From Candidatus Omnitrophota bacterium (lineage in GTDB: Bacteria; Omnitrophota; Gorgyraeia; Zapsychrales; Fredricksoniimonadaceae), in NCBI GenBank assembly GCA_903959815.1, contig CAJBYM010000022.1, positions 1 through 56,043 on the forward strand: DNA of 56,043 nt. The letters are read 5' to 3'. The notes beneath the pieces were generated by a model. That model was not told where the DNA came from. It worked only from the letters and a program-made list of their open reading frames with translations, and searched no databases. Positions 11,248 to 47,631 of this stretch are shown here, one piece after another (within the stretch, counting starts at the first letter, position 1; every line of letters begins with the position of its first letter). Both the position numbers and the translations under genes were made by a program.

Positions 11248-11261
11248 GCATCCTCCTTGTA

Positions 11262-12967: not shown

Positions 12968-15766
12968 TCAATTCATGGCCGCTTCCTGCAAGAACGGCAA
13001 ACCTTCGAGCGACATGACAGAAATGATCTCGGGTGAAAATCCTTCTACGGCCTCAGGCGACATCTTCATGCCTTGCAAACCAAACTCTTGCCGTTGCCCC
13101 TTAAGGTCAAATGCACCATTAACATTCCGAACATCAATACCTCCTGTGATCTCAGACTTGTCGAATTCCCTCAAAACCTTAAGAACCAAACCCGTCGGCA
13201 ACTGATTCGCCGCTTGAACAATATCGCACATATAAATATAAGGTATCAAATATTTGTTCAAAGGTGAATTCTTGTCCCCGCCTTTATAATATTTGTGCTC
13301 CCAGTCATGCAAAAAAGCCTCGGTGGACTTAAACTGAACCTCTATGGTCCAAGCCCCATGGCCCAACATAAAAATAACATGCACGCCGTTATACCATTTA
13401 GGAGTTGATGTCTTTTTCTTTCTTTCCAAACTATAATAATTGATAACCCTGGCAACAATAGGCGCGTTGTTCTTAAAATTCTTTTTAATATCCTCGATTC
13501 GGGCCAAATCTCTTTGCAGTCGACCCTTTTCTTCCTGTTCTTCATCCGATAAACTTTCTCCAACAAGTCGTGCCAACTTCTTATTGATCTTTTGTTCAGC
13601 CGCTTGAAAATCACTCCAAAACTGCTTCAAAAATATGACCTGCTTCTTGGGATCAAGAAGGTCCTGCAATGACTTGAATAAATCCCTGGGATTATCATAA
13701 ATAAAACGCAGACCCAAGTAATCATAACCTTCCCTAGGATCAGGTGCCGGCTTTCCACTCCGCTGTGTATTAGAAAACTTCGCATTTAAACTCTCGGCAC
13801 CTTTGGGCCGACCCGCAATGATCTGCGGCTTTGTCCCCATAAGATCCTTCAAGCTTCTTGAAAAGTCATCGGATTTCTTTTGAAAAAGAACCTTGGATTC
13901 TTTGGCTATATTTATAGTCCATTGTTTCAACGAAACATTCGTAGGCACAATAAACTGCCCATCATTAGAGCGGCTATCGTTAATAATACCTGTATCATCC
14001 ATTTCATTGATCTGAGGAAATTTATTCAAATACTCAATTTCTTTCATTAACCGCAGAAAAAGCTCCTTATACTCTGCATCTGTCTTAAATTTCTTGACAA
14101 CAGAAGCCATTCTCGGGATCAACTCCGGATGAAGTTTTAGAATATACTCCCCCAGGATCTCTTGATAAGGAACGTCTTCATCTTTCGTACGCGACATCAT
14201 GGCCAAACCCCGCAAAATATCAAAGGTTTCCTGCGTGCGCGTACCACTCAGGATCTGTTTCTTTAATGCCGATTCTTCTTCGGGCTCATCCATAACATCA
14301 CCTGATGTTTCTGGACGCTTATCCAAAATATCTGCCAATGCTTTAACTAGGAGCTGCTTATGTTCTTCCCCATCCAAATAAAGGTCAAAAGCACCCTTAA
14401 CCTCCTTGACCATTCTTTCCTTATTGGCCTGAAGCAACGACCACTCACGGGATCCATAACTAAACTTTTTCTCCTCATCCTCAAAAATAATAAACGCAAG
14501 TTCCTTGATACTTTCCATCATCAATGCCATTCTTTCTTTACCTGGAAAATTATCACGTTTTATATCCGCAACAAACTCTGAAGGTGGTGCAAACTTATTC
14601 ACCTGCGGGTCAGGACCTCGCAAATCACCTTTTAGCTCAACATATTTCTTCTTCTTTCGCCCCTGCTTTTCTGAAGCATCCATAGAAGAACGCACCTTGA
14701 ACGTCTTCTCGGAGAAATCTTTGCCTATGCCGGTCGTAAACCCACCGGAAAGATATTTGCGCGGGATCGTCTCGCCGCTATAACGGTCAACTTCTTCTTT
14801 AATATAATTAAAAACCCCTTGGCGAAAGGCCTGAACATACTGATTGTAGATGCGCTGATTCTCAGCCACATCAGCCTGCTCTATACCTTTGACCTTACCC
14901 TGATCAACATAAGCCTTACCCAAAAAAGTCTCATGCATCGCCTTTTTATACCAAGTCGCAAGAATAAGCGCATTGTAAATCTGACGCAAGCGAGCGAAAT
15001 TCTTACCCTGATTCACTTCTTTCTCAAGAGCAGGAATGATGATCTGTCGCATCATGGACTTCGTTAATTCTTGCGTAGGGGCCGACCTTGTGTCGGCCCG
15101 TTCATGAGCTACAACATTATTGTCCATCGCGAGATAATCTGATTCCAGCATGACCTTCAGATGCGCTTTTAGGACCATGGCGCTCGTACCCTGCTGATAT
15201 ACCTCGGCAACATCAGGCATGATCCAGACTTTATTGAATGTATCCACCGGAATATCTGTAGTACCAAATTGATCCTGCGCCTGACGATAAACTTCTGCCC
15301 AGAAATCCTTACCAATCCCCTCTTCAGGATAAATGAGCGATGCCGTGATCTGTTTGAGCATATAATCCTGCGCCAAAAGATCACGCCCCATTTCCGTCAA
15401 GCCGAAACGATCATCAATGATGCGGTCTTTTTCATACGGAGAAAGGTTAACCCACAGCTGGTCTTCAGGAATCGTGAGAGAAACCATAAAATCTTTAACG
15501 AGCAGTAAATATTCATCTTTCCGGGCATCTCCTTGCGGCATCTGCCCCGGATCGACAAAAAACTGGAACTGCAAAGGATTTTCAGGATCAACGGTCAAGG
15601 CACTTAAGAGAGCTGGTTCAAAAGATGCGCTTAAAGCAACTTTATCTCCAGCAGGAGGCAGAAGAACAGCCTGGGCATGAACATACGCAGACGGAAAAGC
15701 TAATGCCAAAGCAAGGGCTCCGGCAATGAACCGCTTTAATATATTATTGTAAATACTGCAAATCAT
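12968..15766 (-). CDS. 932-aa signal-peptide protein: conserved N-terminal module, RelA/SpoT-type synthetase-like domain, conserved C-terminal module (paralogue of the 3,175-aa ORF)
   Basis: ATG at 15766. Signal peptide FIAGALALALAFPSAYVHA. Residues 32-345 align with the N-terminus of ORF 36406-45933. Residues ~645-830 carry GRPKGAESLNAK, DYLGLRFIY, WYNGVHVIF and IEVQFKSTEAFLHDWEHKYYKG in the RSH synthetase motif order. The last ~60 aa, GGIDVRNVNGAFDLKG...GFSPEIISVMSLEGLPFL, are shared with the giant ORF. Confidence 0.8.
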   Translation of the reverse strand: MICSIYNNILKRFIAGALALALAFPSAYVHAQAVLLPPAGDKVALSASFEPALLSALTVDPENPLQFQFFVDPGQMPQGDARKDEYLLLVKDFMVSLTIPEDQLWVNLSPYEKDRIIDDRFGLTEMGRDLLAQDYMLKQITASLIYPEEGIGKDFWAEVYRQAQDQFGTTDIPVDTFNKVWIMPDVAEVYQQGTSAMVLKAHLKVMLESDYLAMDNNVVAHERADTRSAPTQELTKSMMRQIIIPALEKEVNQGKNFARLRQIYNALILATWYKKAMHETFLGKAYVDQGKVKGIEQADVAENQRIYNQYVQAFRQGVFNYIKEEVDRYSGETIPRKYLSGGFTTGIGKDFSEKTFKVRSSMDASEKQGRKKKKYVELKGDLRGPDPQVNKFAPPSEFVADIKRDNFPGKERMALMMESIKELAFIIFEDEEKKFSYGSREWSLLQANKERMVKEVKGAFDLYLDGEEHKQLLVKALADILDKRPETSGDVMDEPEEESALKKQILSGTRTQETFDILRGLAMMSRTKDEDVPYQEILGEYILKLHPELIPRMASVVKKFKTDAEYKELFLRLMKEIEYLNKFPQINEMDDTGIINDSRSNDGQFIVPTNVSLKQWTINIAKESKVLFQKKSDDFSRSLKDLMGTKPQIIAGRPKGAESLNAKFSNTQRSGKPAPDPREGYDYLGLRFIYDNPRDLFKSLQDLLDPKKQVIFLKQFWSDFQAAEQKINKKLARLVGESLSDEEQEEKGRLQRDLARIEDIKKNFKNNAPIVARVINYYSLERKKKTSTPKWYNGVHVIFMLGHGAWTIEVQFKSTEAFLHDWEHKYYKGGDKNSPLNKYLIPYIYMCDIVQAANQLPTGLVLKVLREFDKSEITGGIDVRNVNGAFDLKGQRQEFGLQGMKMSPEAVEGFSPEIISVMSLEGLPFLQEAAMN

Positions 15767-36405: not shown

Positions 36406-39400
36406 CTACGGCAAGAGGAACAAACCGGGGTCCTCAAGCGGCTGGAAAGCTGTTATCCTGAAATCAAAACCCCGGAAAAGCTGAAGGAATTGCTGTGAAC
36501 TCTCGGGAGAGAAAATCTGAAGGCCAATATCGACAGGGGTAAGGATGCCCTTAAAATCAACGATGTCGGATACACCTGTAAGGTCAAGCCCGCCATTCTC
36601 CGGTAAGGCAGCGCTGTCAGGCTCTTCAGGCGCAGCAACCTCCTCGGATTTATCCAGCCCCGCCTGTTTCAGTTGCAAGCTGATATCCTCCATTTGATCC
36701 CGGAATTTGATATGCTCAACCTTGGCCGAACTATAGTTCGGCAGAATAGCGCCGGCTTCAATATCACCCCTGAAATCCTTTCTCGCTTCAAGAAAAAGAT
36801 CATAATACAACAAATACCGTTTGCGCGCCGCGTTCTGCTCATCGATCAGTTCCTTATGATCGAAACCGTTGTGCTCATAAACATCCGGCTGTGAGATCCT
36901 TTTCTCAAGATACGCCTTCAACAGCCGGTCCTCGGGCAATATCAAAGGATTGATGATATCATTAGTCATGTGCAAAAGCGGCAAACTGTTCCAAAGATCC
37001 GGATCCTGCTCAAGTTTATCAAGGACTTTCCCCAGGATGCTGACAGTCTTCGCGTTAAAGAACATGAGGCCGCTAAGCGCGGGGAACTGTTTCAATTTCT
37101 TACGCTTCAGATCAAAACGTGTATTCAGATAAATCAGCTCGTGATCGACGTACATCGGCTCACGGCCTTTGCGTTCAATATCAGAAACGATCATCTTCTC
37201 ATGGATCTCTGCAACGGCATTGGTCTGACCATCGGGGTCCATCTTCAGAAGACCAAGCGTCTCAAGCTCCTTTTCATTCACCCAGTCGGCCTGAACATTG
37301 ATATCCTTATCCGCCGTGAATTCTAGCATGGGACCGAAATACGCGTCGCGGCTGTAAACAGTGATCTGCCCGCCCTTCGAAAAAGGATCGTCCTTCTTCA
37401 GCTTGGCCGCCAAACGGTAACCGTTGATCAAAGCCCAGTCAAGGACCCTGTTGTCATGGAACTTATTCATACCATGAAAAACAAACATGGCCCGGACATC
37501 CTGCCACGGCTTACCGCGCAAGTGCGGATACCGGGCCAAAAAATCCGGGTCCTTCAGTTTTGTGCGCATGAACTGCAAGGCGCGCAGTTCGACATTGCCG
37601 CTCCCTTTTGCGCTCGGAGCAATTACCATCGGCACACTATCCCTGGTCATCACTCCCCTGCTGATATCCACATATTTATTAACCTCATCGACATAATCCA
37701 AATCTTCCGGGATAACGATGACCATGTCCACGCTGGGCGCCCCGCTGCCATTCACTTGTTCATTCAACGCAGCCTTGCCTTCGTCGACGGACCGCTTGAC
37801 CACTTTGTCCATCCCTTTGGCGCCATTGCCATTGGACGTCAAAGGATCACCATTCTTTTTATCAAAATTTTCATCAAGTTTATTATTGATAGCCTTCATA
37901 TCCTTGAGCCATTCCGGATGCGTGATGACATACTGCGCCCACCAGAACGACCCAAACTTGGCAATAGCCCCCAGAATAGTCATCACGATCAACCCATTGC
38001 CGAGCAAGGGCAGTCCGAGAAAACGGGCAAAGAATCCCAGCCCCAAAAATATCGGGGGGGCATAGAGGAAAAGACGGCCCCTCCACCTGCGCCACAGATC
38101 CGCCCGGGCCGCTGCAGCCGATGTCAGAGAATGCAGGGTCTCGGCTTCCGCTATCATATCCTCCAATATCTTTTTGCTCCTGCCCAGAAGATCTTCATCC
38201 TCGTTATAAATCCCCGGCATTAATTTGTTGCCCTTTATTCTGATCTCGGGGATGAGCTCATAGATCCTCTTGGTGGAAATGCCGATCTGATCGGTATATT
38301 TGATCCCATAACGCATAAAAGGATACACTTTGCTCTTTTCGATAAAATGATCATCCGACCCCTTATATCCCATCAGCTTGTCAACAGAGCCCCGGCTTTC
38401 AAAAAGTTCCAGGTAGTCTTCGAGGTACGTTTGCATGTCAAGCAAACGTGCCTTATCGTCAAAAAGCATTTCCGTCTGACGACTATCAAATCCTGAGTGG
38501 CTGTCCTGATAATGGTCAAGGGCATTGCGCAATTCGGTGATCGACAGATAAAGATGAAAGAACGTTTTCATGTACTTGCCGTTACGGATCTCGCCATCCT
38601 CCGACCCCCTGCCCATGAGCTCCGGCACGTAAGGCATGGAACGGATGACATGGTCATACTGGTTCAAGGCTTCATTAATGTCATGGATAACCCCTTGCGG
38701 ATCAACCCCCTCATCTTCGTTCCAGCTCTTAACAATATTTTGCACCTTGACCAGGCGCTTGCGCGCCGAATTATTGAAACCGTCCTCAGGAATGATCGTG
38801 AATGTCAGGCCAGCCGATGTGCCCAGAGCGCCGGGGATCAGGAACATTCTGGCAACCTTTTCTTTCCAGCTGGTTGTTTTGCGCTTGACGCGAATAACGT
38901 CCTTGCGCAAAGACACGACAAGGTCGTCAACCTTGCCATATTTTCTGAAAAATTTCTTCTGAACAAAGCCATGAGCAATGAAGGCCCCGGCCGCAAATAG
39001 CGCCCAAAAAGCGTACCAGATCGACGAAGGAGTGTTCGAGACATTCTGATCATTCTTCAAAATAGACTCTTCAAGGCTCTTCATTTTCTTTTCGATCTCT
39101 CTTTTCAGGGACTTCTGGGTCGAATTGACCGGATTGAAATCCTCGAAATGGGTGATGATCTTCATTGGATCGGTCTCACCGGCGATCTTGAGTCTCATAT
39201 CTTTAATGAGAGCCGTCTCTGCGGTCCCGAATTTGCTGTTGTTCCAGAAATCCAGTTGCGGGGTGTACTCGATGCGCGACTCGACCAAATCAAGGGCTAT
39301 GCCGATCGCCATGGCCTTGATCTGGGCCTTGACCATGTCCGCCCCGTTGGGACGGGGATCCGTGGCCGCATGCAATTCGCCGAAGGTAAAAGTCTTTAAA

Positions 39401-42400
39401 CGGATATTCAAAGGCCAATCCTGCCCGGTGCGTCCATACATCTTAATCATGCCCTCACGCAAGATACTCATGGACTCCGGATCAGGCATGGATTGAACAT
39501 CCGCCCGAAGCAGTGCTTCCCAAGTACGGCTTTCCACCAAAGACAACAGATCATTATCGCTGGAATGCACATACTCCCTCCAGGCCAGGATACGGCCGTC
39601 AGGTTTCTCCATCAGTTTATCCAATACCACACCTCTCTGGAATGTCGGAGAGGCAAGAATACGCGCCAGCTCAGAAAGCCCGGTCCCGTTAATATACTCT
39701 GTCTGGGCATCAGTTCCCAGGGCATCAAAATACGTCAGCATGTCCGTGCTCTCAAGGGACAGGTCCTTAAGCTCATACAACGGCGAGGCAGTCCCCTTAT
39801 TTTCAGGATCCCCGGAAGAGATCTCCCTGTCAGCCTCTTTCTCGGCCCCCCTGAGAAGATCCTTATCGACAAAGCCCTCCATGTCCCGGTTCTCGGGAGA
39901 AGCTGTGAAAAACCTCGTGTTCATGTCTTTAAAAATGTCGCGCATATGCGCGTCATAAATATCCCCTTCACTGACACCCAAACCGCCCAGATTTCTAAAT
40001 GCCCCTTTGTTAAAAAAGTCAGGAACGCTCTCCTCGAACTTACGCCGAATGAGCTCTTTTCTTATAATGGGCGCGAGCTTCGCCGCGGCAGGTTCTTTGG
40101 CGCCAAGAAGGTCATTGTGGATCCCGGCAAGCTGTCGCGTGGACCAGTAGTTACTTTGGAGAAACCGCTCTTTGCCGACCCAATCGTCAGGTGCGAAAGC
40201 AAGGAATGTCAGAAGCACGCGCCGGGCATCCTGGGGCGTCATCTTCATAAAATCAGCATCGCCGCCTTCCGAATAACTGGCTTCAGTCCAATGCCTGAGC
40301 ACGGTCGTATCCTGAATGAACAGATCATTCAAAGCCTGAAAACCCAGCCTGGCCAACGCCATATTGTTCTTGCTGATCGCTTGATCAATGGTATGAACAA
40401 AGAACCTGGGCTCGCTGCCATTCGTCTTGCTCATATTCATGAATAATCGCTGGACCACATCAGGGAACGGAGAATTCAGGACAGCTTTTTGTGCGACAAC
40501 CATGAATTTTCCGTCGTTCTGTCGCTCTTTCATGAAAAAATCCAAGGTCTGCGTGCGCGTGATAATATTAGGATCATGCATTAGGATATCGAGGAGCACA
40601 TCATATTCATCCTGTCCCTGATTTTGGCCACCCGCCATCATGGCCCACATGACCGCCGAACTAATTGTCTTGGGTGAAGAAGAATAATTCACATGGCCTG
40701 CGGACATACCGCTCACCTGCCCCGATGATACCGGTTGTGTCGACGATCCCTGCACGACTGCCGGCGCTGAATATGTCACAGAAAGGGCTGCCATACCGGT
40801 AATCGGAGGGGCAGCATGGAACCCAGTCCCGAAAGAAGAACTTGAAGAAGCTAGCGGCGAACTTCCGTACTTGAATGCAGATGCCGACGGCCCCCCGTAC
40901 CCGGGATTTACGGCATCTTGGACGGCCTCGACAACATCCTGCCCGATCGAAGAGCTTTGTACGGACGCCAATACGCGCGTCGTGCCGTAATCAAGAAGCT
41001 GCATCTGCGTCAACCGGGACTCCGCCTTGAAGTATTTAGCTTTAAGGTCATAAAGCGCCTGGGCGGTTCTTGCGATCTCCTCACGAGCGGCAACCTGTTC
41101 ATAAGGCGAGTAGAGGTCAGGCCGGGACGCCATGTTCTTCCAACTCTTGATGGCCTTAAGGTAGTCCTCATTCCCTTCCTTGATCTGCTGGCTCAAGCTA
41201 TTGATACTCGCCGCGACCTGCGTCAATTCTGATCCAACCTCGGCTCGGATGCGCTGCTGATCATTGACAAACTTGTTCATATTGATCGGCCCAATGTCCT
41301 TTAGCGCCTGATTTTTGGAATTATAAATGGGAATATTCACATTGACCGCACCGTTCGCTCCCGACTGGGAAGCGCTCGTCTTATAGGTGGAACCGGAATA
41401 CGGATCAACAGCCGTATTGCTGATATCCTGAGTTAAAAAAAGCCCATTCACATTGACCTCCGGAAGCGCGCCGAGCTTGTTAAGCTTGATTGTCATGGCC
41501 ATGCCCTCGATCATGGCCTTGGCCTCCTTAAGCTTGAAATTCGGGGTCTTATCACCCAACAAGGTTGAGCTCAAGGCATCCAGCTCGCTTTGCGACATGC
41601 CCGGAAAGTCCCCGTTCCAGGGGAACTCAGGCGAGAACTTCGTGCCAGATTCAAGCCCATGATAAAAATTCGCTTCAAACGTCCAGGCAACAAGGTCATC
41701 TTGCCATTTACTCAGATTGTTGCGCGAGGCCTTGATCTTCGCATGGAGCGCGTCTTTTTCAGCCGTAACAACATTCCCGACCTTTTCATTGGCTTCGACA
41801 ACCGCCAGAGCTTTATTAAGATCATTCAACAAGGCCTGAAGATGGTCAATATGCCACTGAGCATTGCCGACTTGGATATCCAGGTCTTGCGCGTGCTGAA
41901 TATTCCGGCTGACCAGATCTCCCATCACATATGTGAGCGCCTCGGTCTTCTTGACCTGAAGAGCCTTGAGCTTTTGCGGCTCCCCGGTGATGACCTTCAC
42001 AAGCTCTCCGACAAGAGTGGAAACGATCGGGGAAAGCGCCCCATAAATATTGCCCGTCGTTAGCCCACCCTGTATCCCGTTGAACACAAGTCCCAGCCCA
42101 CCGCTCACGCCCAGTTTGCCGTTATTGGAAACAATGCCGAATTTCAGATTAAAGCTCGAAGGGTTGGCAAACTTCTCCTTGGCGCGGCTTTCCTGGACCT
42201 CAAGCTCGGCCTTGCCGTTGATCAGAAAATTATTGGCCGTCCGCGTCGAAAGTTCTTTCATGCTGACTACCTGGCCTTTTGGCAATGAGAGCACGTCGAA
42301 GGAAACCGACACAGGCGCCGCGTTCTTCAAAGGAAGCAGGGGCATGCTGGTCGGCATGATCACTGCGTTGGCAAACTGTTGCTGTGTCGAGACCCTGATC

Positions 42401-45400
42401 TGCGCCGTGCCGCCACCCGAGCGCCCCCCATTCACCGCTGGCTCTGCTCCATAACTCACAGACCTCGCCGCGCTATTGAACATGGCCAACACAAGGTCCT
42501 TGTCCTCATCCGTGGGCACGATCACTTTGACCGGCAGGTTCGGCTGAAGGACATTGTTGATATCTTCCGCTAGGATCTCGACCGTCTGGACACCACTTAG
42601 CCTCATGGTCTGGCCCATGGGCATGGTGTTGACATTCTTGACCCTCGCCGGCACATACTCTCCCCAGGGAGTCATAAGAACGATAGGATCATTGAACTGA
42701 AGACTGATATTGTCAGGCAACTGGATCGTATTATTCATGTCGTAAAGACTGCCCAGCGGGACCTCACTGGGCTTGATGCGCAGCATCTCATCGGCAAATG
42801 CAAAAGAAGAAACGCTCATCGCTGAAATTGACGTCACGATGCCATTAGCAGGCGCCGTGACTCGCGTGCGGCGGACCTGTTTCCTGAGCGCTTTAAGTTT
42901 TGCCCCTAAAGCAGCAGCTTTTTCCTCAAGCTCATCCATCTGGTCATTAGAAAAATGCTGGACACCATCCCGAGGGGCAGACATCTCAAGCTGGGACTTG
43001 ACCGCTTCATAAGCCTTAAGCGTGCTTTTGTACTCTTCCGACGCGGAGCCTTCCACAATGACCATAAGCTGGCCTTTCTTTACCGTCTGGCCCAGCTTGA
43101 CAAAATACTGCGCAGTGCCATCCACCGGAGAAGGAACCAGGAGTTCTGCCGACGCAGGAACGCTTGAGATCGCCCAACCCTTCGCGTTGATGACAGGCGC
43201 ATTGGCCGAGAGCACCGGCGGCAGTATCTCAAGGTTCAAATGCGCATTCCTCGAATTTGAAATGGGCGCGGAGGGCTCGACAAGAAAGGTCACCCGCGCG
43301 AGATTATGCGTGGGATCAGGGTCTACGGCCACGTTAAGGATCCGCCTGACCTGCTGGCCGTCGATCTCAAACCTTCCGAAATATCCGAAAAACGCCTTAT
43401 TATAGGGCATCTCAACCGTCAGCCGCACCCTATCCTGGTCAATATATTCGAACATCTCCGTCCCCTTCTTGACAGGAGTGTTGTTGTAGATCCTCATATT
43501 CTTGATAAGCAAACGGGACGGCGCTCTGACCGTAAAAAGACGACGTTGATTGTCGAGCCGGGCTTTGACCTGGTTGCGCTGGGCCACCTGCCCCTCGACG
43601 GCACGAACTTTTACGGCTGGCATATTCCCGTTAGCGTTCAATTCCAGGGATCTATTCAATTTCGCGCCGCTGATCTTTAACAACTCATCATTCGTCTCGC
43701 TTTGCTCCAGGACATCATCTTCCTCAATGTTGAACATGACCGCGCCGCTCTGGTATCCATTTGCTCCCCGGTTCAGCCCCGAAACATAACCGGTCGTCTG
43801 GGCCACCATCGTCCTCTCATCGGGAACAAGCCCGACCTGTTTCGAGATGGTAAATGTTCCGGACGTTGACGAAAACGATGATGCCGTCGTTGAAGACTGC
43901 TTGACCATCACCGGGGCCGAAACCGGTGCAACAGTTTTTACCGGAGCAACATACGGGCTTGAAACAACCTTCTTCGGTGGCGGAAGAGGTGGCCGCGGAG
44001 GCCCCCCCGAACCTGATACCGCACTTTCAACAGTATTAGACGCCGCCATGGTTATCGTTACAGGCTTAGATTTTACGAAATCTTTGTTCACAACAGACAC
44101 CGGTCTTACAAGGGACGGCGATTTCACGCCCATCGATGTTTTAACTTCTTTCGCCTTGGATACTGACGAATTCTTCTCAACAGAAGGCACCTTGACCTTA
44201 ACATCTGATTTCGCCGCCGCAGACGTCGTCTTCACAACAGCCGTCCCGGTCATCAACGACCCCAATGCTCCGCGTGTCTGAGGCCCTATGTCCCCATCCT
44301 CAACAATCCCCATTTTATGCTGAGCAACAATAACGATCGCCTCCTGCATCCACCCCATCGTAGATGAAGAAAAGATCTTGTCCCAATTGCGCTCAATGGC
44401 ATCAGCATCAAAATCATAGGCTTGTCCCGTCAAAGGATTCTCTTTTCCCTGAATATCCCTGACATCATCGATGGTCAGAAAACCATTCATAAATGAAAAA
44501 TATTTTTGATCCTCTTCAAGGATAGGATCTCCTCGACTAATGATCTTCCGCGACACATCCTCAAGAGAGATCACATTCCGGGGACCTCCATTATTTTGCG
44601 CCACCTGCACCATATGGGTGGAATCAACAGGAACATGGAATGCCCCTTGCCCAGCGCCCTGAATCCCAAGACCTGACATGGAAGAAAGAAAAAGCCCTCC
44701 GGCAAAAGCCAACCCCAAAAGGCTTTTCCTGGACATCCCCCGGGGAACCAAAGAAACTGTAAAACGAAAAATATTCTTACCAAAACGATTCATTAAAGAA
44801 ACAAGCTCCGGCCTTGTCAAGGACCAGACAGGCATGATCTCGGTCCGCTCCGCCGCATCCTCGAAAGAAAATCCCCCTGAGAAATAATGGCGCGGAACGA
44901 CCTCCTGTTGATCCGTGTCATAATCCTCACGGATGATATCGTAAACCCCTTTTTTCAACGCCACCATATACTGGGCATAAATCTTTTGGGCGATCTCTTT
45001 GTCTTGTATTTGAATGCCAGATGTTTTCTTTTTATTGCTGTATATTTGATTAACAATGTGCTTCTGAAGCTTCTTCTTAAACCAGATCGCAAGGACCAAG
45101 GAATTGAACATTTGACGCAATTGTGAGAAATAATGACCCTCATTAACTTCCCGCTCAAGCTCAGGAATGATGATGTCGCGTGCGATCATCAGATATAACC
45201 CCGTAATCTCCTTTTCCGCATGTACAGAGACTTTATCCTCAGCAGCCGTCTTTTTAAGAGTCAAATAATCCTGATCAAGCAAAACCTTCAATCGGCTTTC
45301 AGCAATAAAAGCCATGCCCTTTTGCTCATAAACAACAGCTTTCTGTGGAACCACCCACACCTTGCTGAATGTGTCGAGCGGAAGATCAACCTCACCGTAT

Positions 45401-45933
45401 TTATTTCTGATCTTGGAACGCACCTGTTCCCAAAAAGATTTCCCCGGCTCCACATCGGGAAAGGTCATCGACGCCGCCATCTGTTTCAAGAGATAATCCT
45501 GCCTGAGCAGATCCTCACCGACAGCGGTGCCGCCCAAAACCGGATTAACAATACGATCCGGCTCGGAAGGAGAAAGATTGACCCAAAGATCTTTTTCCGG
45601 AATGGTCAAAAAAGCGAGAAAATATTTGATCAGGCGCTGTGACCCTTCTTCATTAAAGTTCGGATGTTCTCCCGCATCAACGAGAAAATCGATCTTCAGC
45701 GGATCAATCGGATCAATGGATATCGCTTTCAGAAGAGGGCATGCAGCCGTGGATGATGCAGACAATAAAACGCCAGGAGGAGGATCCATAATAATGCTTT
45801 GCGCATAAGCATCCTTAACACGCAAAAGATCAATCCCGATAGTGTTGCCGGTATAGATCACCAGTAGCGCACAACACACAAAACGGAAGGAGCGTGACCA
45901 TCCTGAATTTCTCTGCTGCATCAATGAATACAT
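36406..45933 (-). CDS. Giant (3,175-aa) signal-peptide multidomain envelope protein: shared N-module, PG-binding-like motif, two MFP(HlyD)-like units, TolC-like coiled coils, TM helices, unknown domains, shared C-module
   Basis: An uninterrupted 9.5-kb ORF with ATG at 45933 and signal peptide CCALLVIYTGNTIGIDLLRVKDAYA. Supporting motifs: GIVEDGDIGPQTRGALGSL; VKLGQTVKKGQLMVIVEGS ... coiled coil ... RVTAPANGIVTSI; and LGALPEVNVNGLF / NVNIPIYNSKNQ / YEQVAAREEIARTAQALYDLKAKYFKAESRL. Hydrophobic helices at aa 2305-2324 and 2620-2670. All long plus-strand ORFs inside it are low-complexity shadows. Confidence 0.85.
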   Translation of the reverse strand: MYSLMQQRNSGWSRSFRFVCCALLVIYTGNTIGIDLLRVKDAYAQSIIMDPPPGVLLSASSTAACPLLKAISIDPIDPLKIDFLVDAGEHPNFNEEGSQRLIKYFLAFLTIPEKDLWVNLSPSEPDRIVNPVLGGTAVGEDLLRQDYLLKQMAASMTFPDVEPGKSFWEQVRSKIRNKYGEVDLPLDTFSKVWVVPQKAVVYEQKGMAFIAESRLKVLLDQDYLTLKKTAAEDKVSVHAEKEITGLYLMIARDIIIPELEREVNEGHYFSQLRQMFNSLVLAIWFKKKLQKHIVNQIYSNKKKTSGIQIQDKEIAQKIYAQYMVALKKGVYDIIREDYDTDQQEVVPRHYFSGGFSFEDAAERTEIMPVWSLTRPELVSLMNRFGKNIFRFTVSLVPRGMSRKSLLGLAFAGGLFLSSMSGLGIQGAGQGAFHVPVDSTHMVQVAQNNGGPRNVISLEDVSRKIISRGDPILEEDQKYFSFMNGFLTIDDVRDIQGKENPLTGQAYDFDADAIERNWDKIFSSSTMGWMQEAIVIVAQHKMGIVEDGDIGPQTRGALGSLMTGTAVVKTTSAAAKSDVKVKVPSVEKNSSVSKAKEVKTSMGVKSPSLVRPVSVVNKDFVKSKPVTITMAASNTVESAVSGSGGPPRPPLPPPKKVVSSPYVAPVKTVAPVSAPVMVKQSSTTASSFSSTSGTFTISKQVGLVPDERTMVAQTTGYVSGLNRGANGYQSGAVMFNIEEDDVLEQSETNDELLKISGAKLNRSLELNANGNMPAVKVRAVEGQVAQRNQVKARLDNQRRLFTVRAPSRLLIKNMRIYNNTPVKKGTEMFEYIDQDRVRLTVEMPYNKAFFGYFGRFEIDGQQVRRILNVAVDPDPTHNLARVTFLVEPSAPISNSRNAHLNLEILPPVLSANAPVINAKGWAISSVPASAELLVPSPVDGTAQYFVKLGQTVKKGQLMVIVEGSASEEYKSTLKAYEAVKSQLEMSAPRDGVQHFSNDQMDELEEKAAALGAKLKALRKQVRRTRVTAPANGIVTSISAMSVSSFAFADEMLRIKPSEVPLGSLYDMNNTIQLPDNISLQFNDPIVLMTPWGEYVPARVKNVNTMPMGQTMRLSGVQTVEILAEDINNVLQPNLPVKVIVPTDEDKDLVLAMFNSAARSVSYGAEPAVNGGRSGGGTAQIRVSTQQQFANAVIMPTSMPLLPLKNAAPVSVSFDVLSLPKGQVVSMKELSTRTANNFLINGKAELEVQESRAKEKFANPSSFNLKFGIVSNNGKLGVSGGLGLVFNGIQGGLTTGNIYGALSPIVSTLVGELVKVITGEPQKLKALQVKKTEALTYVMGDLVSRNIQHAQDLDIQVGNAQWHIDHLQALLNDLNKALAVVEANEKVGNVVTAEKDALHAKIKASRNNLSKWQDDLVAWTFEANFYHGLESGTKFSPEFPWNGDFPGMSQSELDALSSTLLGDKTPNFKLKEAKAMIEGMAMTIKLNKLGALPEVNVNGLFLTQDISNTAVDPYSGSTYKTSASQSGANGAVNVNIPIYNSKNQALKDIGPINMNKFVNDQQRIRAEVGSELTQVAASINSLSQQIKEGNEDYLKAIKSWKNMASRPDLYSPYEQVAAREEIARTAQALYDLKAKYFKAESRLTQMQLLDYGTTRVLASVQSSSIGQDVVEAVQDAVNPGYGGPSASAFKYGSSPLASSSSSFGTGFHAAPPITGMAALSVTYSAPAVVQGSSTQPVSSGQVSGMSAGHVNYSSSPKTISSAVMWAMMAGGQNQGQDEYDVLLDILMHDPNIITRTQTLDFFMKERQNDGKFMVVAQKAVLNSPFPDVVQRLFMNMSKTNGSEPRFFVHTIDQAISKNNMALARLGFQALNDLFIQDTTVLRHWTEASYSEGGDADFMKMTPQDARRVLLTFLAFAPDDWVGKERFLQSNYWSTRQLAGIHNDLLGAKEPAAAKLAPIIRKELIRRKFEESVPDFFNKGAFRNLGGLGVSEGDIYDAHMRDIFKDMNTRFFTASPENRDMEGFVDKDLLRGAEKEADREISSGDPENKGTASPLYELKDLSLESTDMLTYFDALGTDAQTEYINGTGLSELARILASPTFQRGVVLDKLMEKPDGRILAWREYVHSSDNDLLSLVESRTWEALLRADVQSMPDPESMSILREGMIKMYGRTGQDWPLNIRLKTFTFGELHAATDPRPNGADMVKAQIKAMAIGIALDLVESRIEYTPQLDFWNNSKFGTAETALIKDMRLKIAGETDPMKIITHFEDFNPVNSTQKSLKREIEKKMKSLEESILKNDQNVSNTPSSIWYAFWALFAAGAFIAHGFVQKKFFRKYGKVDDLVVSLRKDVIRVKRKTTSWKEKVARMFLIPGALGTSAGLTFTIIPEDGFNNSARKRLVKVQNIVKSWNEDEGVDPQGVIHDINEALNQYDHVIRSMPYVPELMGRGSEDGEIRNGKYMKTFFHLYLSITELRNALDHYQDSHSGFDSRQTEMLFDDKARLLDMQTYLEDYLELFESRGSVDKLMGYKGSDDHFIEKSKVYPFMRYGIKYTDQIGISTKRIYELIPEIRIKGNKLMPGIYNEDEDLLGRSKKILEDMIAEAETLHSLTSAAAARADLWRRWRGRLFLYAPPIFLGLGFFARFLGLPLLGNGLIVMTILGAIAKFGSFWWAQYVITHPEWLKDMKAINNKLDENFDKKNGDPLTSNGNGAKGMDKVVKRSVDEGKAALNEQVNGSGAPSVDMVIVIPEDLDYVDEVNKYVDISRGVMTRDSVPMVIAPSAKGSGNVELRALQFMRTKLKDPDFLARYPHLRGKPWQDVRAMFVFHGMNKFHDNRVLDWALINGYRLAAKLKKDDPFSKGGQITVYSRDAYFGPMLEFTADKDINVQADWVNEKELETLGLLKMDPDGQTNAVAEIHEKMIVSDIERKGREPMYVDHELIYLNTRFDLKRKKLKQFPALSGLMFFNAKTVSILGKVLDKLEQDPDLWNSLPLLHMTNDIINPLILPEDRLLKAYLEKRISQPDVYEHNGFDHKELIDEQNAARKRYLLYYDLFLEARKDFRGDIEAGAILPNYSSAKVEHIKFRDQMEDISLQLKQAGLDKSEEVAAPEEPDSAALPENGGLDLTGVSDIVDFKGILTPVDIGLQIFSPESSQQFLQLFRGFDFRITAFQPLEDPGLFLLP

Positions 45934-46005
45934 GCCGTTCTCTCTTACATGGGGACTATAGGTTGAATATTCTTAGAAAAAGTATATACGCTAAATGTGG
46001 AATCC

Positions 46006-46064
46006 CCGTAACGCCGATGTAAACTCTGTGTTAACTACGTTAAAGAATGTTAAAATAATGTTGC
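46006..46064 (-). promoter_or_regulatory. Array of 5-6 direct hexamer repeats TT(A/T)AC(A/G) at ~10.5-bp phasing, merging into a putative -35 upstream of the giant ORF
   Basis: Minus-strand hexamers start at 46064 (GCAACA), 46053 (TTAACA), 46043 (TTAACG), 46034 (TTAACA), 46023 (TTTACA) and 46011 (TTACGG). A 17-nt spacer then leads to TATATA (45988-45983), about 50 nt upstream of the ATG at 45933. Confidence 0.35.
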
Positions 46065-46084
46065 GGATGATCGAAATAAGATAT

Positions 46085-46276
46085 TTAATTGTTTTCAAAC
46101 CTTGAAGGTGTTATTTCACCCTTCGTCAAGTCGACCCGAAAATATTTCATGTGACTCTGGCTTCTAAACCATGCCCGCCTGTTCTTCTGCAAACATGATC
46201 CAAAGGATTTTCCCATATCCCCTTCCCTGGACAAAATCTGTTCATTCAGAAAATACGGATCCCGAAAATAACTCAT
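46085..46276 (-). CDS. Small hypothetical protein (63 aa)
   Basis: ATG at 46276 is preceded by a strong AGGAGGTG SD at optimal spacing. No motif recognised. Confidence 0.45.
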   Translation of the reverse strand: MSYFRDPYFLNEQILSREGDMGKSFGSCLQKNRRAWFRSQSHMKYFRVDLTKGEITPSRFENN

Positions 46277-46402
46277 AGGCCACCTCCTATTTCAAATCTT
46301 TGTCTTTTAACAAAACAACTATACTTATGAAATATGACAATGCCATGACGCCACTGTCAACTTCCTGTGAAATAAGACATCTCTTGGGTTTGTTAAAGGA
46401 TA

Positions 46403-46966
46403 TTACGGTAAACGGGGATCAAAACGGGGCAAGGGCTCGATCAAGACACCGCCGGCGCTCTTTTCCGGATTCTTTTCTTTGATTCTTCTGATGTCATTTT
46501 TGATGGCATCAATCTCATCCAGGATCTTGGGAAGACCCTGGTCAACGATCTCTGATGTCGAATTTAACGACACCTCAAGCGCATCAACTTTTTGCTGAAT
46601 CGACACCAACGTGCTCACATAATCTTTCTGCCACTCTTTGGTATCATCCTTGATCTTCCAAGCCTCTGCCCTGCTCTGGGAAATGACGGACTTTATCTCA
46701 ACGATAGAATCCTTAATCTGCGGGATCAACTCGCCGATCTGGGCATTTTCTTTCTGAACTTTCTCAAACTTAACACGTTGTTCCTCGAGGCCGTTTTTCA
46801 AATCCTTGATCCCCACCTTCAACTCTTGTATATTTTTCTGTTGATCAGCCGTATACGTCCCCATCCATTCAAGAGACCTTTGTTGCTGGGCATAACAATA
46901 AAAAGAAAAGACGGTCATAGCAATAACCATGACCACCCCGATAATATTCAACAACCGTCTGAACAT
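46403..46966 (-). CDS. Membrane-anchored coiled-coil protein (about 187 aa), last gene of the pst-phoU operon
   Basis: The ATG at 46966 overlaps the phoU TGA. N-terminal TM IIGVVMVIAMTVFSFYCYA followed by heptad-like K/E/Q-rich sequence. Confidence 0.6.
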   Translation of the reverse strand: MFRRLLNIIGVVMVIAMTVFSFYCYAQQQRSLEWMGTYTADQQKNIQELKVGIKDLKNGLEEQRVKFEKVQKENAQIGELIPQIKDSIVEIKSVISQSRAEAWKIKDDTKEWQKDYVSTLVSIQQKVDALEVSLNSTSEIVDQGLPKILDEIDAIKNDIRRIKEKNPEKSAGGVLIEPLPRFDPRLP

Positions 46967-47631
46967 CAAAGCCTTTCCGGATGATGCTTGACCACCTCAG
47001 CTTTGACCATATAGATGACATCCTCTGCAATATAAGTAGCATGGTCAGAAACGCGCTCAAGAAATCGAGCGATCAACAGGAGTTGAACAGCACGCGGCGC
47101 TGAGGACGGATCCCTGGCGATATAAACATCAACAAGTTCTTTGTGGATCGCATCACGCAAAGCATCCGCCTCCGGCTCCATGGCAAGAACCATCTTGGCT
47201 ATCTCAATATCACGGGCAATAAATGCATCAATGGACATCCTGACCATCTTTTGTGCGATCGATGCTAACTTGGGAATATCCACCAAAGGCTTAAGCAAAG
47301 GCTCATCTGCCATCTCAATAACATGTTGAGAAATATCGACCGCAAGATCCGCGATACACTCAAGTTCATTGTTAAGCCGCATGCCTGTTGTAATAAACCT
47401 GAGATCCACGGCCATAGGCTGTTGCCGGGCAATAAGATCAAGGCACTTCTCATCGATGATCAGTTCCAATTCATCGATACAACTGTCATTGTCAATGACC
47501 GATTGTGCAGCATCAACATCACGACTTTTTAATGCTGCGATCGATCTCGCCACCGCTTCTTCCGCCAAAGTCCCCATCTTAAGGATATCATTATTCAATT
47601 CTGCTAATTCTTCATGAAAATGTTTACTCAT
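46966..47631 (-). CDS. phoU: Phosphate-uptake regulator PhoU
   Basis: MSKHFHEELAELNNDILKMG... with two PhoU repeats (DxxxD-type helices, e.g. ERVSDHATYIAEDV). ATG at 47631; the track's longer ORF overlaps arsC. Confidence 0.85.
   Translation of the reverse strand: MSKHFHEELAELNNDILKMGTLAEEAVARSIAALKSRDVDAAQSVIDNDSCIDELELIIDEKCLDLIARQQPMAVDLRFITTGMRLNNELECIADLAVDISQHVIEMADEPLLKPLVDIPKLASIAQKMVRMSIDAFIARDIEIAKMVLAMEPEADALRDAIHKELVDVYIARDPSSAPRAVQLLLIARFLERVSDHATYIAEDVIYMVKAEVVKHHPERL

What the first reader, a model, noticed from the sequence alone, without database searches (positions are those of the whole stretch)
44869..45801. About 310-aa N-terminal module shared by the 3,175-aa and 932-aa proteins
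Directly after their signal peptides, the giant ORF (aa ~45-355, nt 44869-45801) and the 932-aa ORF (aa ~32-345, nt 14732-15673) are colinear and clearly homologous.

Shared strings include:
- F(L/M)xxLTIPE(K/D)(D/Q)LWVNLSP(S/Y)E(P/K)DRI
- G(E/R)DLL(R/A)QDY(L/M)LKQ
- FW(E/A)(Q/E)V
- D(L/I)P(L/V)DTF(S/N)KVW(V/I)
- LKV(L/M)L(D/E)xDYL
- IIIP(E/A)LE(R/K)EVN(E/Q)G
- LRQ(M/I)(F/Y)N(S/A)L(V/I)LA(I/T)W(F/Y)KK
- IY(A/N)QY(M/V)
- PR(H/K)Y(F/L)SGGF

I do not recognise this as a named domain. Two proteins 21 kb apart with the same head and different bodies look like a polymorphic or modular protein family, which could point to a common targeting, anchoring or secretion function.
Basis: seen in the sequence. 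Interest (0 to 1): 0.7.

Follow-up and report, generated by a model that had tools for sequence, protein, structure and literature searches.

The report
Conserved end-caps on Omnitrophota exported proteins
The shared 310-aa head is real: it is the front half of an undescribed two-part signature (a ~330-aa head plus a ~65-aa tail) that brackets very varied enzyme cargo in thousands of signal-peptide-bearing proteins of the uncultured phylum Omnitrophota, and it probably gives them a shared targeting or anchoring step whose nature is unknown.

Summary
The two heads share 39% identity over 327 aa (E 2e-74).

The head ("N-cap") matches nothing in Pfam, NCBIfam, PHROGs, PADLOC or PDB sequences. A confident AlphaFold model (pLDDT 83) has no Foldseek match in PDB or BFVD.

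A profile search finds 8,418 clusters at 50% identity. In every top hit the N-cap sits right after a Sec-type signal peptide. Nearly all named sources are Omnitrophota, and genomes carry several copies, often in tandem.

Intact members also end in a conserved ~65-aa "C-cap" (GGIDL...PVIINIxP...LLG). Both window proteins carry divergent copies of it.

Cargo between the caps ranges from none (438-aa P0034) to more than 5,000 aa. It is mostly cytoplasm-type domains, including hexokinase, PGK, GAPDH, TIM, kinases, SNF2 and methyltransferases, usually without transmembrane helices.

In the window, the cargo is a HlyD/TolC-like body (3,175 aa) and an orphan body with a weak RelA/SpoT-like motif (932 aa).

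My best reading (0.45) is a two-part carrier for a shared step after Sec export, either surface anchoring or secretion. This is inferred, not shown. Paralogues are old, so this is not toxin-style cassette swapping.

The parts
36406..45933 (-). Giant ORF of 3,175 aa. Layout: signal peptide, N-cap, HlyD/TolC-like body, hydrophobic hairpin, nucleotidyltransferase-like region, C-cap.
   Evidence: The identical protein P0268 is in public assemblies. Orthologues P0269-P0299 are 2,500-3,400 aa, and NCBI names two of them 'TolC family protein'.
45802..45933 (-). Sec-type signal peptide of the giant protein (aa 1-44, ...LRVKDAYA|Q).
   Evidence: Read from the sequence. The family-wide pattern is: 284 of 295 members have a hydrophobic core, 280 have K/R before it, and 270 have small-x-small after it. 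SignalP was not run.
44842..45801 (-). N-cap of the giant protein (aa 45-364). This is the module in the finding.
   Evidence: BLASTP gives E 2e-74. The family HMM gives E 4.5e-149. The AlphaFold model has pLDDT 82.9 and pTM 0.83.
44656..44739 (-). Internal signal-peptide-like segment just after the N-cap (aa 399-426, MSRKSLLGLAFAGGLFLSSMSGLGI). It is probably a relic of a once separate exported protein, or a transmembrane helix.
   Evidence: Hydropathy is 1.59 at aa 406. Orthologues L001 and L003 have an equivalent segment at aa 402 and 395. The relic reading is inference.
42757..43533 (-). HlyD / membrane-fusion-protein-like region of the giant cargo (aa 801-1059).
   Evidence: Hits are weak: HlyD_D23 at E 1.6e-4 and HlyD_3 at 0.011, RND_mfp at 3.4e-5 and type_I_hlyD at 4.2e-4. 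All are below the curated cut-offs. Precomputed Pfam hits PF25919, PF25984, PF25917 and PF00364 are listed for some orthologues.
41128..41541 (-). TolC/OEP-like region of the giant cargo (aa 1465-1602).
   Evidence: Pfam OEP at E 7.4e-5, 23.1 bits against a cut-off of 22. Orthologues P0283 and P0296 are named 'TolC family protein'.
37951..38073 (-). Pair of hydrophobic segments, a possible transmembrane hairpin (aa 2621-2661).
   Evidence: Kyte-Doolittle 19-mer means are 1.65 and 1.66-1.83. No dedicated topology predictor was run.
36409..36600 (-). Divergent C-cap of the giant protein (aa 3112-3175: NGGLDLTGV...FRGFDFRITAFQPLEDPGLFLLP).
12968..15766 (-). 932-aa ORF. Layout: signal peptide, N-cap, orphan cargo, C-cap.
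   Evidence: The exact protein is found on 6 public contigs of up to 0.2-1 Mb, with the same neighbours.
15674..15766 (-). Sec-type signal peptide of the 932-aa protein (aa 1-31, ...PSAYVHA|Q).
   Evidence: Read from the sequence. Family pattern.
   Evidence: BLASTP. Family HMM at E 1.9e-158.
13247..13411 (-). Weak RelA/SpoT-like (toxSAS FaRel2-like) motif in the 932-aa cargo (aa 786-840, ...GVHVIFMLGHGAWTIEVQF...).
   Evidence: phmmer against PDB matches 8pu4/8pu3/8pu1 at E ~0.1 over 55 aa. This is a lead only. The cargo alone found no homologue.

Best explanation
The ~320-aa module is the N-terminal half ('N-cap') of a two-part signature specific to Omnitrophota. The other half is a ~65-aa 'C-cap' at the extreme C-terminus. 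The two caps bracket a linker that tolerates insertions.

Proposed mechanism:
1. A Sec-type signal peptide takes the protein across the inner membrane.
2. The two caps act together as a carrier. Most likely they pack against each other, and together they supply the step all members share after export: recognition by an unidentified envelope component that retains the protein on the cell surface or passes it across the outer membrane.
3. The cargo inserted between the caps (none to more than 5,000 aa) gives each paralogue its own activity.

In this window one paralogue carries a HlyD/TolC-like envelope body. The other carries an orphan body with a weak RelA/SpoT-like motif.

Shown: the architecture, the strict pairing of the caps, their N-terminal and C-terminal positions, the signal-peptide features, the cargo diversity, the size and taxonomic range of the family, and the absence of known relatives.

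Inferred: actual export, contact between the caps, and the anchoring or secretion role.
For: **Homology.** The two heads are clearly homologous.

**Family size and position.** A profile of the head finds 8,418 proteins at E<=1e-3 and 6,861 at E<=1e-30 among representatives of 50%-identity clusters. In all 150 listed hits the module starts within the first ~50 residues, and lengths run from 420 to 4,969 aa.

**Taxonomic range.** At least 570 loci were found in species-representative genomes. In the 80 kept, record titles are Omnitrophota/Omnitrophica or 'uncultured Planctomycetales' MAGs, with two exceptions. Several loci come from the same genome.

**Signal peptide.** Signal-peptide features occur in 270-284 of 295 members with a full N-terminus.

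**C-cap pairing.**
- A simple motif search (GG[ILVM]D[ILVFM]) finds the C-cap start in the last 90 aa of 42 of 62 complete ORFs.
- The C-cap HMM hits 112 of the 147 newly returned representatives, at the C-terminus in those listed, and 203 of 379 proteins in the pooled set, always at the end.
- Among ORFs in the loci there are 110 N-cap hits, 86 C-cap hits and 74 with both. By my reading of the coordinates, the 12 C-cap-only ORFs are cut by a locus end or are frameshift or N-masked continuations of an N-cap ORF.
- Both window proteins carry a divergent C-cap at their ends.

**Cargo-less member.** P0034 is 438 aa: signal peptide, N-cap, a 15-aa linker and C-cap. It is a real gene on 32-44 kb contigs and sits in tandem with an 1,110-aa member. 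This supports the reading that cargo is an insertion into a basic cap protein.

**Possible docking.** AlphaFold on P0034 gives pTM 0.79 and pLDDT about 91 over the GGIDL segment, after a linker below 50. This is compatible with docking on the N-cap.

**Cargo.**
- Tails are mostly unrelated: 76 clusters among 82 tails at >=50% mutual coverage, although 52 share some local module.
- Cargo domains include hexokinase+PGI, PGK+PGAM, GAPDH and TIM.
- Others include SNF2, HTH, response regulators, ABC1, M48, GNAT and methyltransferases.
- Most members have no strong hydrophobic segment apart from the signal peptide and the C-cap.

**No known relatives.** No curated family or solved structure matches either cap.
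Against: - No experiment or dedicated predictor shows export.
- Cytoplasm-type enzymes that use ATP or NAD are unexpected outside the cytoplasm.
- Contact between the caps rests on pLDDT and pTM of only the best of five models. The other four have mean pLDDT 70-73, and no PAE or coordinates were available.
- No conserved neighbouring gene for a dedicated machine was found. The commonest neighbours are two-component and ABC ATPase genes, in 10-17 of 80 loci.
- About 14 invariant polar residues in the N-cap would also fit an enzyme.
- The window's two proteins have atypical C-caps and lack the D-x-A-M motif that is typical of the family.
Confidence: 0.45

Rival explanations
1. The N-cap is an enzyme that works on its own polypeptide. 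It could be a maturation protease that cuts the polyprotein at short linker motifs (D-x-A-M, or the Gly-Gly pairs that end the N-cap and begin the C-cap). Alternatively it could be a ligase that locks the C-cap to the N-cap.
For: - Many invariant polar residues persist across 74 sequences that are only 39-55% identical: N80, S82, T97, D107, Y108, K111, Q112, E223, N225, R234, Q235 and K247.
- In an unbiased scan, D.AM is by far the most over-represented gapped tetramer in linkers and cargo: 425 observed against 36 expected, or 11.7-fold. The next is N.AM at 2.5-fold.
- The motif clusters just after the N-cap and just before the C-cap, with no conserved flanks. That pattern is typical of cleavage sites.
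- The N-cap ends in an invariant ...YFSGG and the C-cap begins with GGID.
Against: - Both window proteins keep every N-cap invariant but contain no D.AM at all.
- No protease or ligase family or fold was detected.
Confidence: 0.2
2. The caps are self-assembly handles.
For: - The two caps are strictly paired at opposite ends.
- The C-cap contains a beta-strand-like hydrophobic stretch (PVIINIxPV), and the N-cap model has exposed beta-hairpins.
- Many paralogues per genome could co-assemble.
- A cultured relative is described in the literature as a 'coated coccus' (PMC10066038).
Against: There is no direct evidence. The AlphaFold monomer of P0034 is equally compatible with docking within the same molecule. 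No multimer prediction was possible.
Confidence: 0.12
3. The N-cap is a membrane-active translocation head, like ClyA-family alpha-pore-forming toxins. It would insert into a prey or host membrane and deliver the cytoplasm-type cargo enzymes into that cell.
For: - The top Foldseek hits, though not significant, are repeatedly ClyA-family proteins in two independent searches: NheA, MakA/B/E, SmhA and Cry6Aa, plus colicin Ia.
- The cargo is made of cytoplasm-type enzymes and regulators.
- Omnitrophota are reported as predatory or parasitic (PMC10066038; 10.1101/2023.11.21.568195).
Against: - Foldseek E-values are 0.16-5, probabilities are <=0.06, TM-scores are 0.09-0.13 and rmsd exceeds 20 Å. This is not a fold match.
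- The module's beta-hairpin (KVWVVPQKAVVYEQ..MAFIAESRLKVLL) is amphipathic, not a hydrophobic tongue.
Confidence: 0.1
4. The head is a two-partner-secretion (TPS) domain recognised by the ShlB/FhaC-type transporter encoded in the same window.
For: A ShlB/POTRA_2 transporter gene lies at 3866-5584, about 7 kb from the 932-aa gene. TPS substrates also carry a conserved domain of about 250 aa after the signal peptide, followed by a variable body (established knowledge).
Against: - The head gives no hit to the TPS domain model or to any other Pfam model.
- The predicted fold is mixed alpha/beta with long helices, not a beta-helix.
- The transporter has its own classical partner immediately downstream (3857->1, with the motif ...VFLVNPNGIFFG).
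- No ShlB-type gene recurs next to family members.
Confidence: 0.03

Closest known systems
Type IX secretion cargo (Sec signal peptide plus conserved C-terminal sorting domain, CTD)
   Same: An N-terminal Sec signal, very diverse cargo, and a conserved C-terminal domain of about 65-90 aa shared by many paralogues in one genome.
   Different: - The C-cap does not match the T9SS CTD models or any other NCBIfam or Pfam model.
- T9SS cargo has no conserved 330-aa N-terminal domain.
- T9SS is known from Bacteroidota and relatives, not Omnitrophota (from memory).
- Cargo here is mostly cytoplasm-type enzymes.
Polymorphic toxins with conserved N-terminal trafficking domains (MafB/DUF1020, LXG, CdiA TPS domain)
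   Same: A conserved N-terminal domain of about 200-300 aa, preceded by a signal peptide in MafB and CdiA, fused to variable C-terminal parts. They are multi-copy and often arrayed.
   Different: - No sequence or fold relationship was found.
- Here the extreme C-terminus is conserved rather than variable.
- Cargo is large and multi-domain, not a short toxin tip.
- Paralogues are old, at 39-72% identity within arrays, with no sign of cassette exchange.
- Immunity genes were not looked for.
Omnitrophota giant or long multi-enzyme proteins ('Archaeovorins' and related; 10.1101/2023.11.21.568195, 10.64898/2026.06.07.730766, PMC10066038)
   Same: The same phylum, the same odd mix of signal peptides with methyltransferase, HATPase, GNAT, HAD, phosphoglucomutase, hexokinase, response-regulator and HEAT content, and the same proposed extracytoplasmic location.
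   Different: [quoted passage not shown]
- None of the passages read from these three papers describes a conserved N-terminal or C-terminal module. A full-text search for WVNLSP, GGIDL, GGIDF and GGIDLT found nothing relevant.
- Members seen here are 0.4-5.4 kaa.
- Whether proteins above 10 kaa carry the caps was not testable.
HlyD-type periplasmic adaptors and TolC-type outer-membrane factors (relevant only to the body of the 3,175-aa protein)
   Same: Weak matches to HlyD_D23, RND_mfp and OEP. NCBI names orthologues 'TolC family protein'.
   Different: Here both are fused in one polypeptide behind the N-cap, followed by hydrophobic segments, a ~500-aa further region and the C-cap. The adaptor-type hits score below the curated cut-offs; the OEP hit reaches its cut-off only marginally (23.1 against 22 bits).

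Membership tests
Two-partner secretion TPS domain (Pfam Haemagg_act type) | Sequence match to the TPS domain model, with NPNL/NPNGI motifs. | tested here: not met
   Neither protein's head gives a TPS-domain hit, or any other credible Pfam hit, at E<=0.1. The NPNGI motif is present instead in the separate ORF at 3857->1.
Two-partner secretion TPS domain (Pfam Haemagg_act type) | Right-handed beta-helix fold. | tested here: not met
   The AlphaFold model is mixed alpha/beta, with helices of 14-26 residues and two beta-hairpins.
Two-partner secretion TPS domain (Pfam Haemagg_act type) | Gene adjacent to a TpsB (ShlB/FhaC) transporter. | tested here: not met
   The window's TpsB is paired with its own TpsA. 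No TpsB cluster appears among recurrent neighbours in 80 loci.
T9SS C-terminal sorting domain and other curated C-terminal sorting signals (PEP-CTERM, LPXTG, GlyGly-CTERM and others) | Match to a curated sorting-domain model. | tested here: not met
   NCBIfam and Pfam scans of eight and ten canonical members, and of both window proteins, give no hit on the C-cap.
T9SS C-terminal sorting domain and other curated C-terminal sorting signals (PEP-CTERM, LPXTG, GlyGly-CTERM and others) | For sortase-type signals: a motif, then a transmembrane helix, then a basic tail. | tested here: not met
   The C-cap has a short Pro-containing hydrophobic stretch followed by acidic or polar residues, with no basic cluster.
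ClyA-family alpha-pore-forming toxins | Significant fold similarity: a helical tail bundle plus a hydrophobic beta-tongue head. | tested here: not met
   The best Foldseek E-values are 0.16-0.32, probabilities are <=0.06 and TM-scores are 0.09-0.12.
Polymorphic toxin systems | Near-identical N-terminal regions with swapped C-terminal tips among neighbouring or strain-variant copies. | tested here: not met
   N-caps within arrays are 39-72% identical, with one pair at 90%. Only 12 of 46 arrayed copies are most similar to their array neighbour. The C-terminus is conserved.
Polymorphic toxin systems | A cognate immunity gene immediately downstream. | not tested
   Small downstream ORFs were not analysed.
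HlyD/MFP plus TolC/OEP (body of the 3,175-aa protein) | Matches to the curated family models at or above their cut-offs. | tested here: inconclusive
   OEP scores 23.1 bits against a cut-off of 22. HlyD_D23 scores 21.4 against 30, RND_mfp 23 against 94.9, and type_I_hlyD 19.4 against 208. NCBI names orthologues TolC family.
RelA/SpoT (RSH / toxSAS) nucleotide pyrophosphokinases (body of the 932-aa protein) | Match to the synthetase domain, including the catalytic motif. | tested here: inconclusive
   The only match is a 55-aa stretch to FaRel2 structures at E ~0.1. There is no Pfam hit.

The most novel reading that the evidence does not exclude
The N-cap/C-cap pair marks a previously unrecognised, phylum-wide export, display or delivery pathway in Omnitrophota. 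It would carry complete cytoplasm-type enzymes outside the cell or into prey, including whole glycolytic steps, kinases, helicases and alarmone-synthetase-like domains. The caps would clasp, and perhaps be cleaved at or covalently joined near the bracketing Gly-Gly and D-x-A-M motifs. This would give the enigmatic long multi-enzyme proteins of these predatory nanobacteria a common, testable targeting code.
Probability: 0.25. Interest if true: 0.9.

Novelty: categorically new. Interest (0 to 1): 0.72.

Why it matters
Omnitrophota are widespread, uncultured, probably predatory or parasitic nanobacteria. Their long proteins combine signal peptides with enzymes that normally work in the cytoplasm, and no common targeting feature was found described for them in the papers consulted here.

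A conserved head-and-tail signature shared by thousands of such proteins gives a concrete handle:
- It defines the family and its cargo repertoire from sequence alone.
- It supplies a minimal 438-aa cargo-less member (P0034) for structural and biochemical work.
- It turns the question of where these proteins go and how into a testable one: localisation of cap fusions, cap deletions, and searches for binding partners.

If the caps form a portable export or display tag, they could also be useful for engineering.

The 'categorically new' rating rests on negative searches of Pfam, NCBIfam, PHROGs, PADLOC, PDB and BFVD. AlphaFold DB and InterPro beyond Pfam were not available.

Tried and rejected
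**Searches for a known relative of the caps (all negative).**
- Sequence searches against Pfam, NCBIfam, PADLOC, PHROGs and PDB, both single-sequence and profile, found nothing.
- Foldseek of two models against PDB and one against BFVD gave no hit with E<=0.001. The recurring ClyA-family hits were kept only as a weak lead.
- A literature search for the motifs WVNLSP and GGIDL and a reading of three Omnitrophota papers found no description of the caps.

**Hypotheses rejected.**
- The TPS hypothesis was rejected.
- A periplasmic sensor with a transmembrane helix and cytoplasmic output was rejected for the family, because most members have no hydrophobic segment between the caps. The giant subfamily does have one right after the N-cap, so its topology stays open.
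- A conserved neighbouring partner gene was not found.
- Recent tandem duplication or cassette swapping was not supported.

- The 932-aa cargo alone found no homologue. This is partly because the search for homologous proteins seems to return only hits of about 0.55-1.75 times the query length. That also explains why the first search listed only proteins of <=573 aa.
- One call failed on a frame error and was repeated.
- Covariation analysis between the caps was considered and dropped. There are too few sequences, and no model coordinates to check against.
Full report
**1. The observation**

The window carries two minus-strand ORFs, 36406..45933 (3,175 aa) and 12968..15766 (932 aa).
- BLASTP aligns giant aa 43-364 with aa 30-355 of the shorter protein at 39% identity and 63% positives, with E 2e-74.
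- A tblastn of the head against the window finds only these two copies. The next hit has E 0.65.
- Both proteins start with a Sec-type signal: basic residues, a hydrophobic core, then AYA|Q or VHA|Q.

**2. Setting**

The window is ordinary chromosome.
- Genes identified include rpsB-tsf-pyrH-frr, pstB-phoU, dprA, class II aldolase, PFK, metK, ahcY, ilvC, leuA, PTS enzyme I, a histidine kinase and a porin.
- Homologues of the head come almost only from Candidatus Omnitrophota/Omnitrophica MAGs.
- The window therefore belongs to an Omnitrophota genome.
- Its nearest relative among the fetched loci is MAG ELA167, whose RpsB, Tsf, PyrH, PstB and PhoU are 75-91% identical to the window's.

**3. The head is an uncharacterised domain with no detectable relatives**

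- Neither protein's head matches anything credible in Pfam or NCBIfam. PADLOC gives no hit on either head, and PHROGs gives none for the 932-aa protein or for P0034.
- A profile of 74 family members hits nothing real in PDB sequences.
- AlphaFold2 with that alignment gives a confident model with mean pLDDT 82.9 and pTM 0.83. It has an N-terminal beta-hairpin, several helices of 14-26 residues and a long central beta-hairpin.
- Foldseek finds no match with E<=0.001 in PDB or BFVD.
- The best, non-significant PDB hits are repeatedly ClyA-type pore-forming toxins, but with TM-scores of 0.09-0.12. I keep this only as a lead.

**4. It defines a very large family**

- A profile search of 1.84 billion cluster representatives finds 8,418 proteins at E<=1e-3 and 6,861 at E<=1e-30.
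- In all 150 listed hits the module begins within the first ~50 residues. Lengths run from 420 to 4,969 aa.
- In species-representative genomes at least 570 loci encode it, with several loci from the same genome. For example, six of the best 80 loci come from MAG OFTM38.
- ORFs carrying it run from 403 aa to more than 3,700 aa, where the fetched DNA ends.
- About a quarter of loci hold two to four copies in same-strand arrays.
- Of 295 members with a full N-terminus, 284 have a hydrophobic core, 280 have K/R before it, and 270 have a small-x-small site after it.

**5. A second shared part: the C-cap**

Complete family ORFs end in a conserved ~65-aa module. Its consensus is GGIDL(T/N)P..(L/M)(N/D)LQ..... 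G(F/L).PVIINI.P(V/M)..L..(L/F)LG.

An HMM built from 56 of these ends gave the following results.
- It hits 86 ORFs in the loci, 74 of which also have the N-cap. By my reading of the coordinates, the 12 C-cap-only ORFs are cut by a locus end or continue a frameshifted or N-masked N-cap ORF.
- It hits 112 of the 147 newly returned profile representatives, at the C-terminus in those listed.
- It hits 203 of 379 pooled proteins, always at the end.
- Both window proteins carry divergent versions that end two and six residues before the C-terminus: E 1e-6 for the 932-aa protein and 5.6e-5 for the giant, in a two-sequence search.
- The giant's variant (GGLDL...GFDFRITAFQPLEDP) is shared by its orthologues L001 and L002.
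- Neither Pfam nor NCBIfam, which include the curated C-terminal sorting signals, match the C-cap.

**6. Cargo**

- P0034 (438 aa) is signal peptide, N-cap, a 15-residue linker and C-cap, with nothing in between. It is a real gene on 32-44 kb contigs, followed in tandem by an 1,110-aa member with both caps.
- At the other extreme, members reach at least 5,358 aa.
- Tails of 82 members fall into 76 clusters at >=50% mutual coverage, yet 52 share some local module. Cargo modules are therefore themselves shuffled.
- Direct Pfam scans show hexokinase+PGI, PGK+histidine phosphatase, GAPDH, and TIM+GAPDH+DeoC aldolase downstream of the N-cap, with E down to 5e-97.
- Surveys add HTH, ABC1 kinase, M48 peptidase, response regulators, SNF2/DEAD helicases, GNAT, HATPase, UDPGP and methyltransferases.
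- The precomputed Pfam accessions listed for further members point to more cytoplasm-type enzymes, such as enolase, phosphoglucomutase, protein kinase with PP2C phosphatase, NUDIX, AAA and HEAT. These names are from my memory of the accession numbers, not from a scan.
- Most members have no strongly hydrophobic segment other than the signal peptide and the C-cap.
- This matches what is reported for much longer Omnitrophota proteins (10.64898/2026.06.07.730766; 10.1101/2023.11.21.568195; PMC10066038). Nothing I read in those papers describes the caps, and a motif search of the literature found nothing relevant.

**7. The two window proteins**

*The 3,175-aa protein.*
- The giant has about 30 orthologous clusters of 2,500-3,400 aa. 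NCBI names two of them 'TolC family protein', and several have precomputed Pfam hits that I recall as membrane-fusion-protein barrel-sandwich families.
- The window protein itself gives weak HlyD_D23/RND_mfp hits (aa 801-1059) and a weak OEP hit (aa 1465-1602).
- Directly after the N-cap it has a signal-peptide-like segment (MSRKSLLGLAFAGGLFLSSMSGLGI) that is conserved in position in orthologues. I read this as a relic of a once separate exported protein. It could instead be a transmembrane helix, which would change the topology.
- Two adjacent hydrophobic segments lie at aa 2621-2661.
- The region aa 2415-3093 recurs in another member with a different architecture, L002.

*The 932-aa protein.*
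- The cargo has no detectable homologue (with the tool's length restriction as a caveat).
- It has only a weak 55-aa similarity to the toxic alarmone synthetase FaRel2, at E about 0.1.

**8. Evolution**

- N-caps of copies in the same array are 39-72% identical, with one pair at 90%. The median between loci is 51%.
- Only 12 of 46 arrayed copies are most similar to their neighbour.
- The paralogues are therefore old, and this is not toxin-style cassette exchange.
- Locus content does turn over. In the close relative ELA167, a 973-aa member follows pstB-phoU on one contig. Two members (961 and 923 aa) precede rpsB-tsf-pyrH on another. The window has the giant between these genes. Contig breaks prevent saying whether a giant orthologue is also present.
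- No non-family gene recurs next to members in more than 17 of 80 loci. The commonest are generic two-component and ABC genes.

**9. A linker motif in canonical members**

- An unbiased scan of all gapped tetramers in the linker and cargo regions of 202 complete members finds D.AM 425 times against 36 expected, or 11.7-fold. The runner-up is N.AM at 2.5-fold.
- The motif clusters just after the N-cap and just before the C-cap, also occurs inside cargo, and has no conserved flanks. This looks like a processing or recognition site.
- Both window proteins lack it entirely, so it cannot be essential to what the N-cap does.

**10. How it most likely works**

What is shown:
- a Sec-type signal;
- a conserved N-cap of unknown fold;
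- an insertion-tolerant linker;
- a strictly co-occurring C-cap;
- cargo of unrelated functions.

The strict pairing of the caps at opposite ends, and the existence of a cargo-less form, suggest that the basic unit is a ~400-aa exported protein into which cargo has been inserted. AlphaFold on P0034 gives pTM 0.79 and pLDDT of about 91 for the GGIDL segment after a disordered linker. This is compatible with the C-cap docking on the N-cap. However, only the best of five models reaches this, and no PAE or coordinates were available.

I therefore favour, at 0.45, a two-part carrier that supplies a shared step after Sec export, either surface retention or passage across the outer membrane.

The rivals are:
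- an autoprocessing or ligating enzyme (0.2);
- head-to-tail self-assembly (0.12);
- a pore-former-like delivery head (0.1);
- a TPS-type domain (0.03). This last rival is largely refuted, because the fold is not a beta-helix and the window's ShlB-type transporter has its own classical TpsA partner.

**11. Verdict**

- No curated family or solved or viral predicted structure matches, and I found no description in the literature held here.
- I rate it categorically new at the level of domain and architecture. The caveat is that this rests on negative searches, and AlphaFold DB was not available.
- Interest is 0.72.

Noticed in passing
window 1-5584 (minus strand): A classical two-partner secretion pair. 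It consists of a ShlB/FhaC-type transporter (3866-5584; ShlB, POTRA_2) and, immediately downstream, a TpsA-like ORF of more than 1,285 aa that runs off the window start (3857->1). The TpsA-like ORF has the TPS motif ...VFLVNPNGIFFG and long Gly/Thr/Asn-rich repeats.
   Followed up: partly
related proteins (P-series); not in the window: The short motif D-x-A-M is 11.7-fold over-represented (425 against 36 expected) in the linkers and cargo of canonical family members. It concentrates just after the N-cap and just before the C-cap. This looks like a possible processing site. Both window proteins lack it.
   Followed up: partly
P0034 / L081:2704-4020, with neighbour L081:4093-7425: A natural cargo-less family member of 438 aa (signal peptide, N-cap, 15-aa linker, C-cap). 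It sits in tandem with an 1,110-aa member and is an ideal minimal construct for structural work.
   Followed up: yes
window 46403-46969..36406 compared with L044:8364-12786 and L053:329-8356: In a close relative (MAG ELA167; neighbouring housekeeping proteins 75-91% identical), a 973-aa family member follows pstB-phoU on one contig. Two members (961 and 923 aa) precede rpsB-tsf-pyrH on another. The window has the 3,175-aa gene and a 188-aa ORF with no family between these genes. This suggests locus-level turnover of family members. Contig breaks there leave it unresolved.
   Followed up: partly
window 44656-44739 (giant aa 399-426): An internal signal-peptide-like segment (MSRKSLLGLAFAGGLFLSSMSGLGI) lies right after the N-cap and is conserved in position in orthologues L001 and L003. 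It suggests the body was once a separate exported protein fused behind the cap. If it acts as a transmembrane helix instead, the topology of the HlyD/TolC-like part changes.
   Followed up: partly
window 7246-8628, 19113-19811 and 19801-21003 (minus strand): Scattered pilus or type II secretion-related genes: a T2SSE-family ATPase, a prepilin peptidase (A24) and an overlapping Lcl_C-domain protein. No complete secretion locus lies in the window, and no link to the cap family was established.
   Followed up: no
window 8668-11792 (minus strand); L077:15711-17628: A fused double M16 (insulinase-type) peptidase of 865 aa overlaps by 4 nt with a 176-aa ORF that has no family. The pair is conserved (52% identity) downstream of a different, 1,811-aa family member in L077.
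   Followed up: no
window 38000-44000 compared with 44000-46000 and 14000-16000: G+C is 50-54% across the middle of the giant gene but 44-46% over both N-cap regions. The window mean is about 48%. This may reflect Ala/Gly/Pro-rich linkers or a different origin of the cargo.
   Followed up: no
L007 (DYOU01000064.1) and P0069: Two family members come from records labelled outside Omnitrophota. One is 'Candidatus Elulimicrobium sp.', which NCBI places in the Patescibacteria group. The other is 'Candidatus Bathyarchaeia archaeon'. Both are on short contigs (6-7 kb). They may be binning errors or real occurrences outside the phylum.
   Followed up: no
tool behaviour: the search for homologous proteins appears to return only proteins of about 0.55-1.75 times the query length. 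A 327-aa query gave hits of <=573 aa. A 3,175-aa query gave hits of 1,749-5,358 aa. A 517-aa fragment did not recover its own 932-aa parent. Length distributions taken from that tool are therefore biased.
   Followed up: partly
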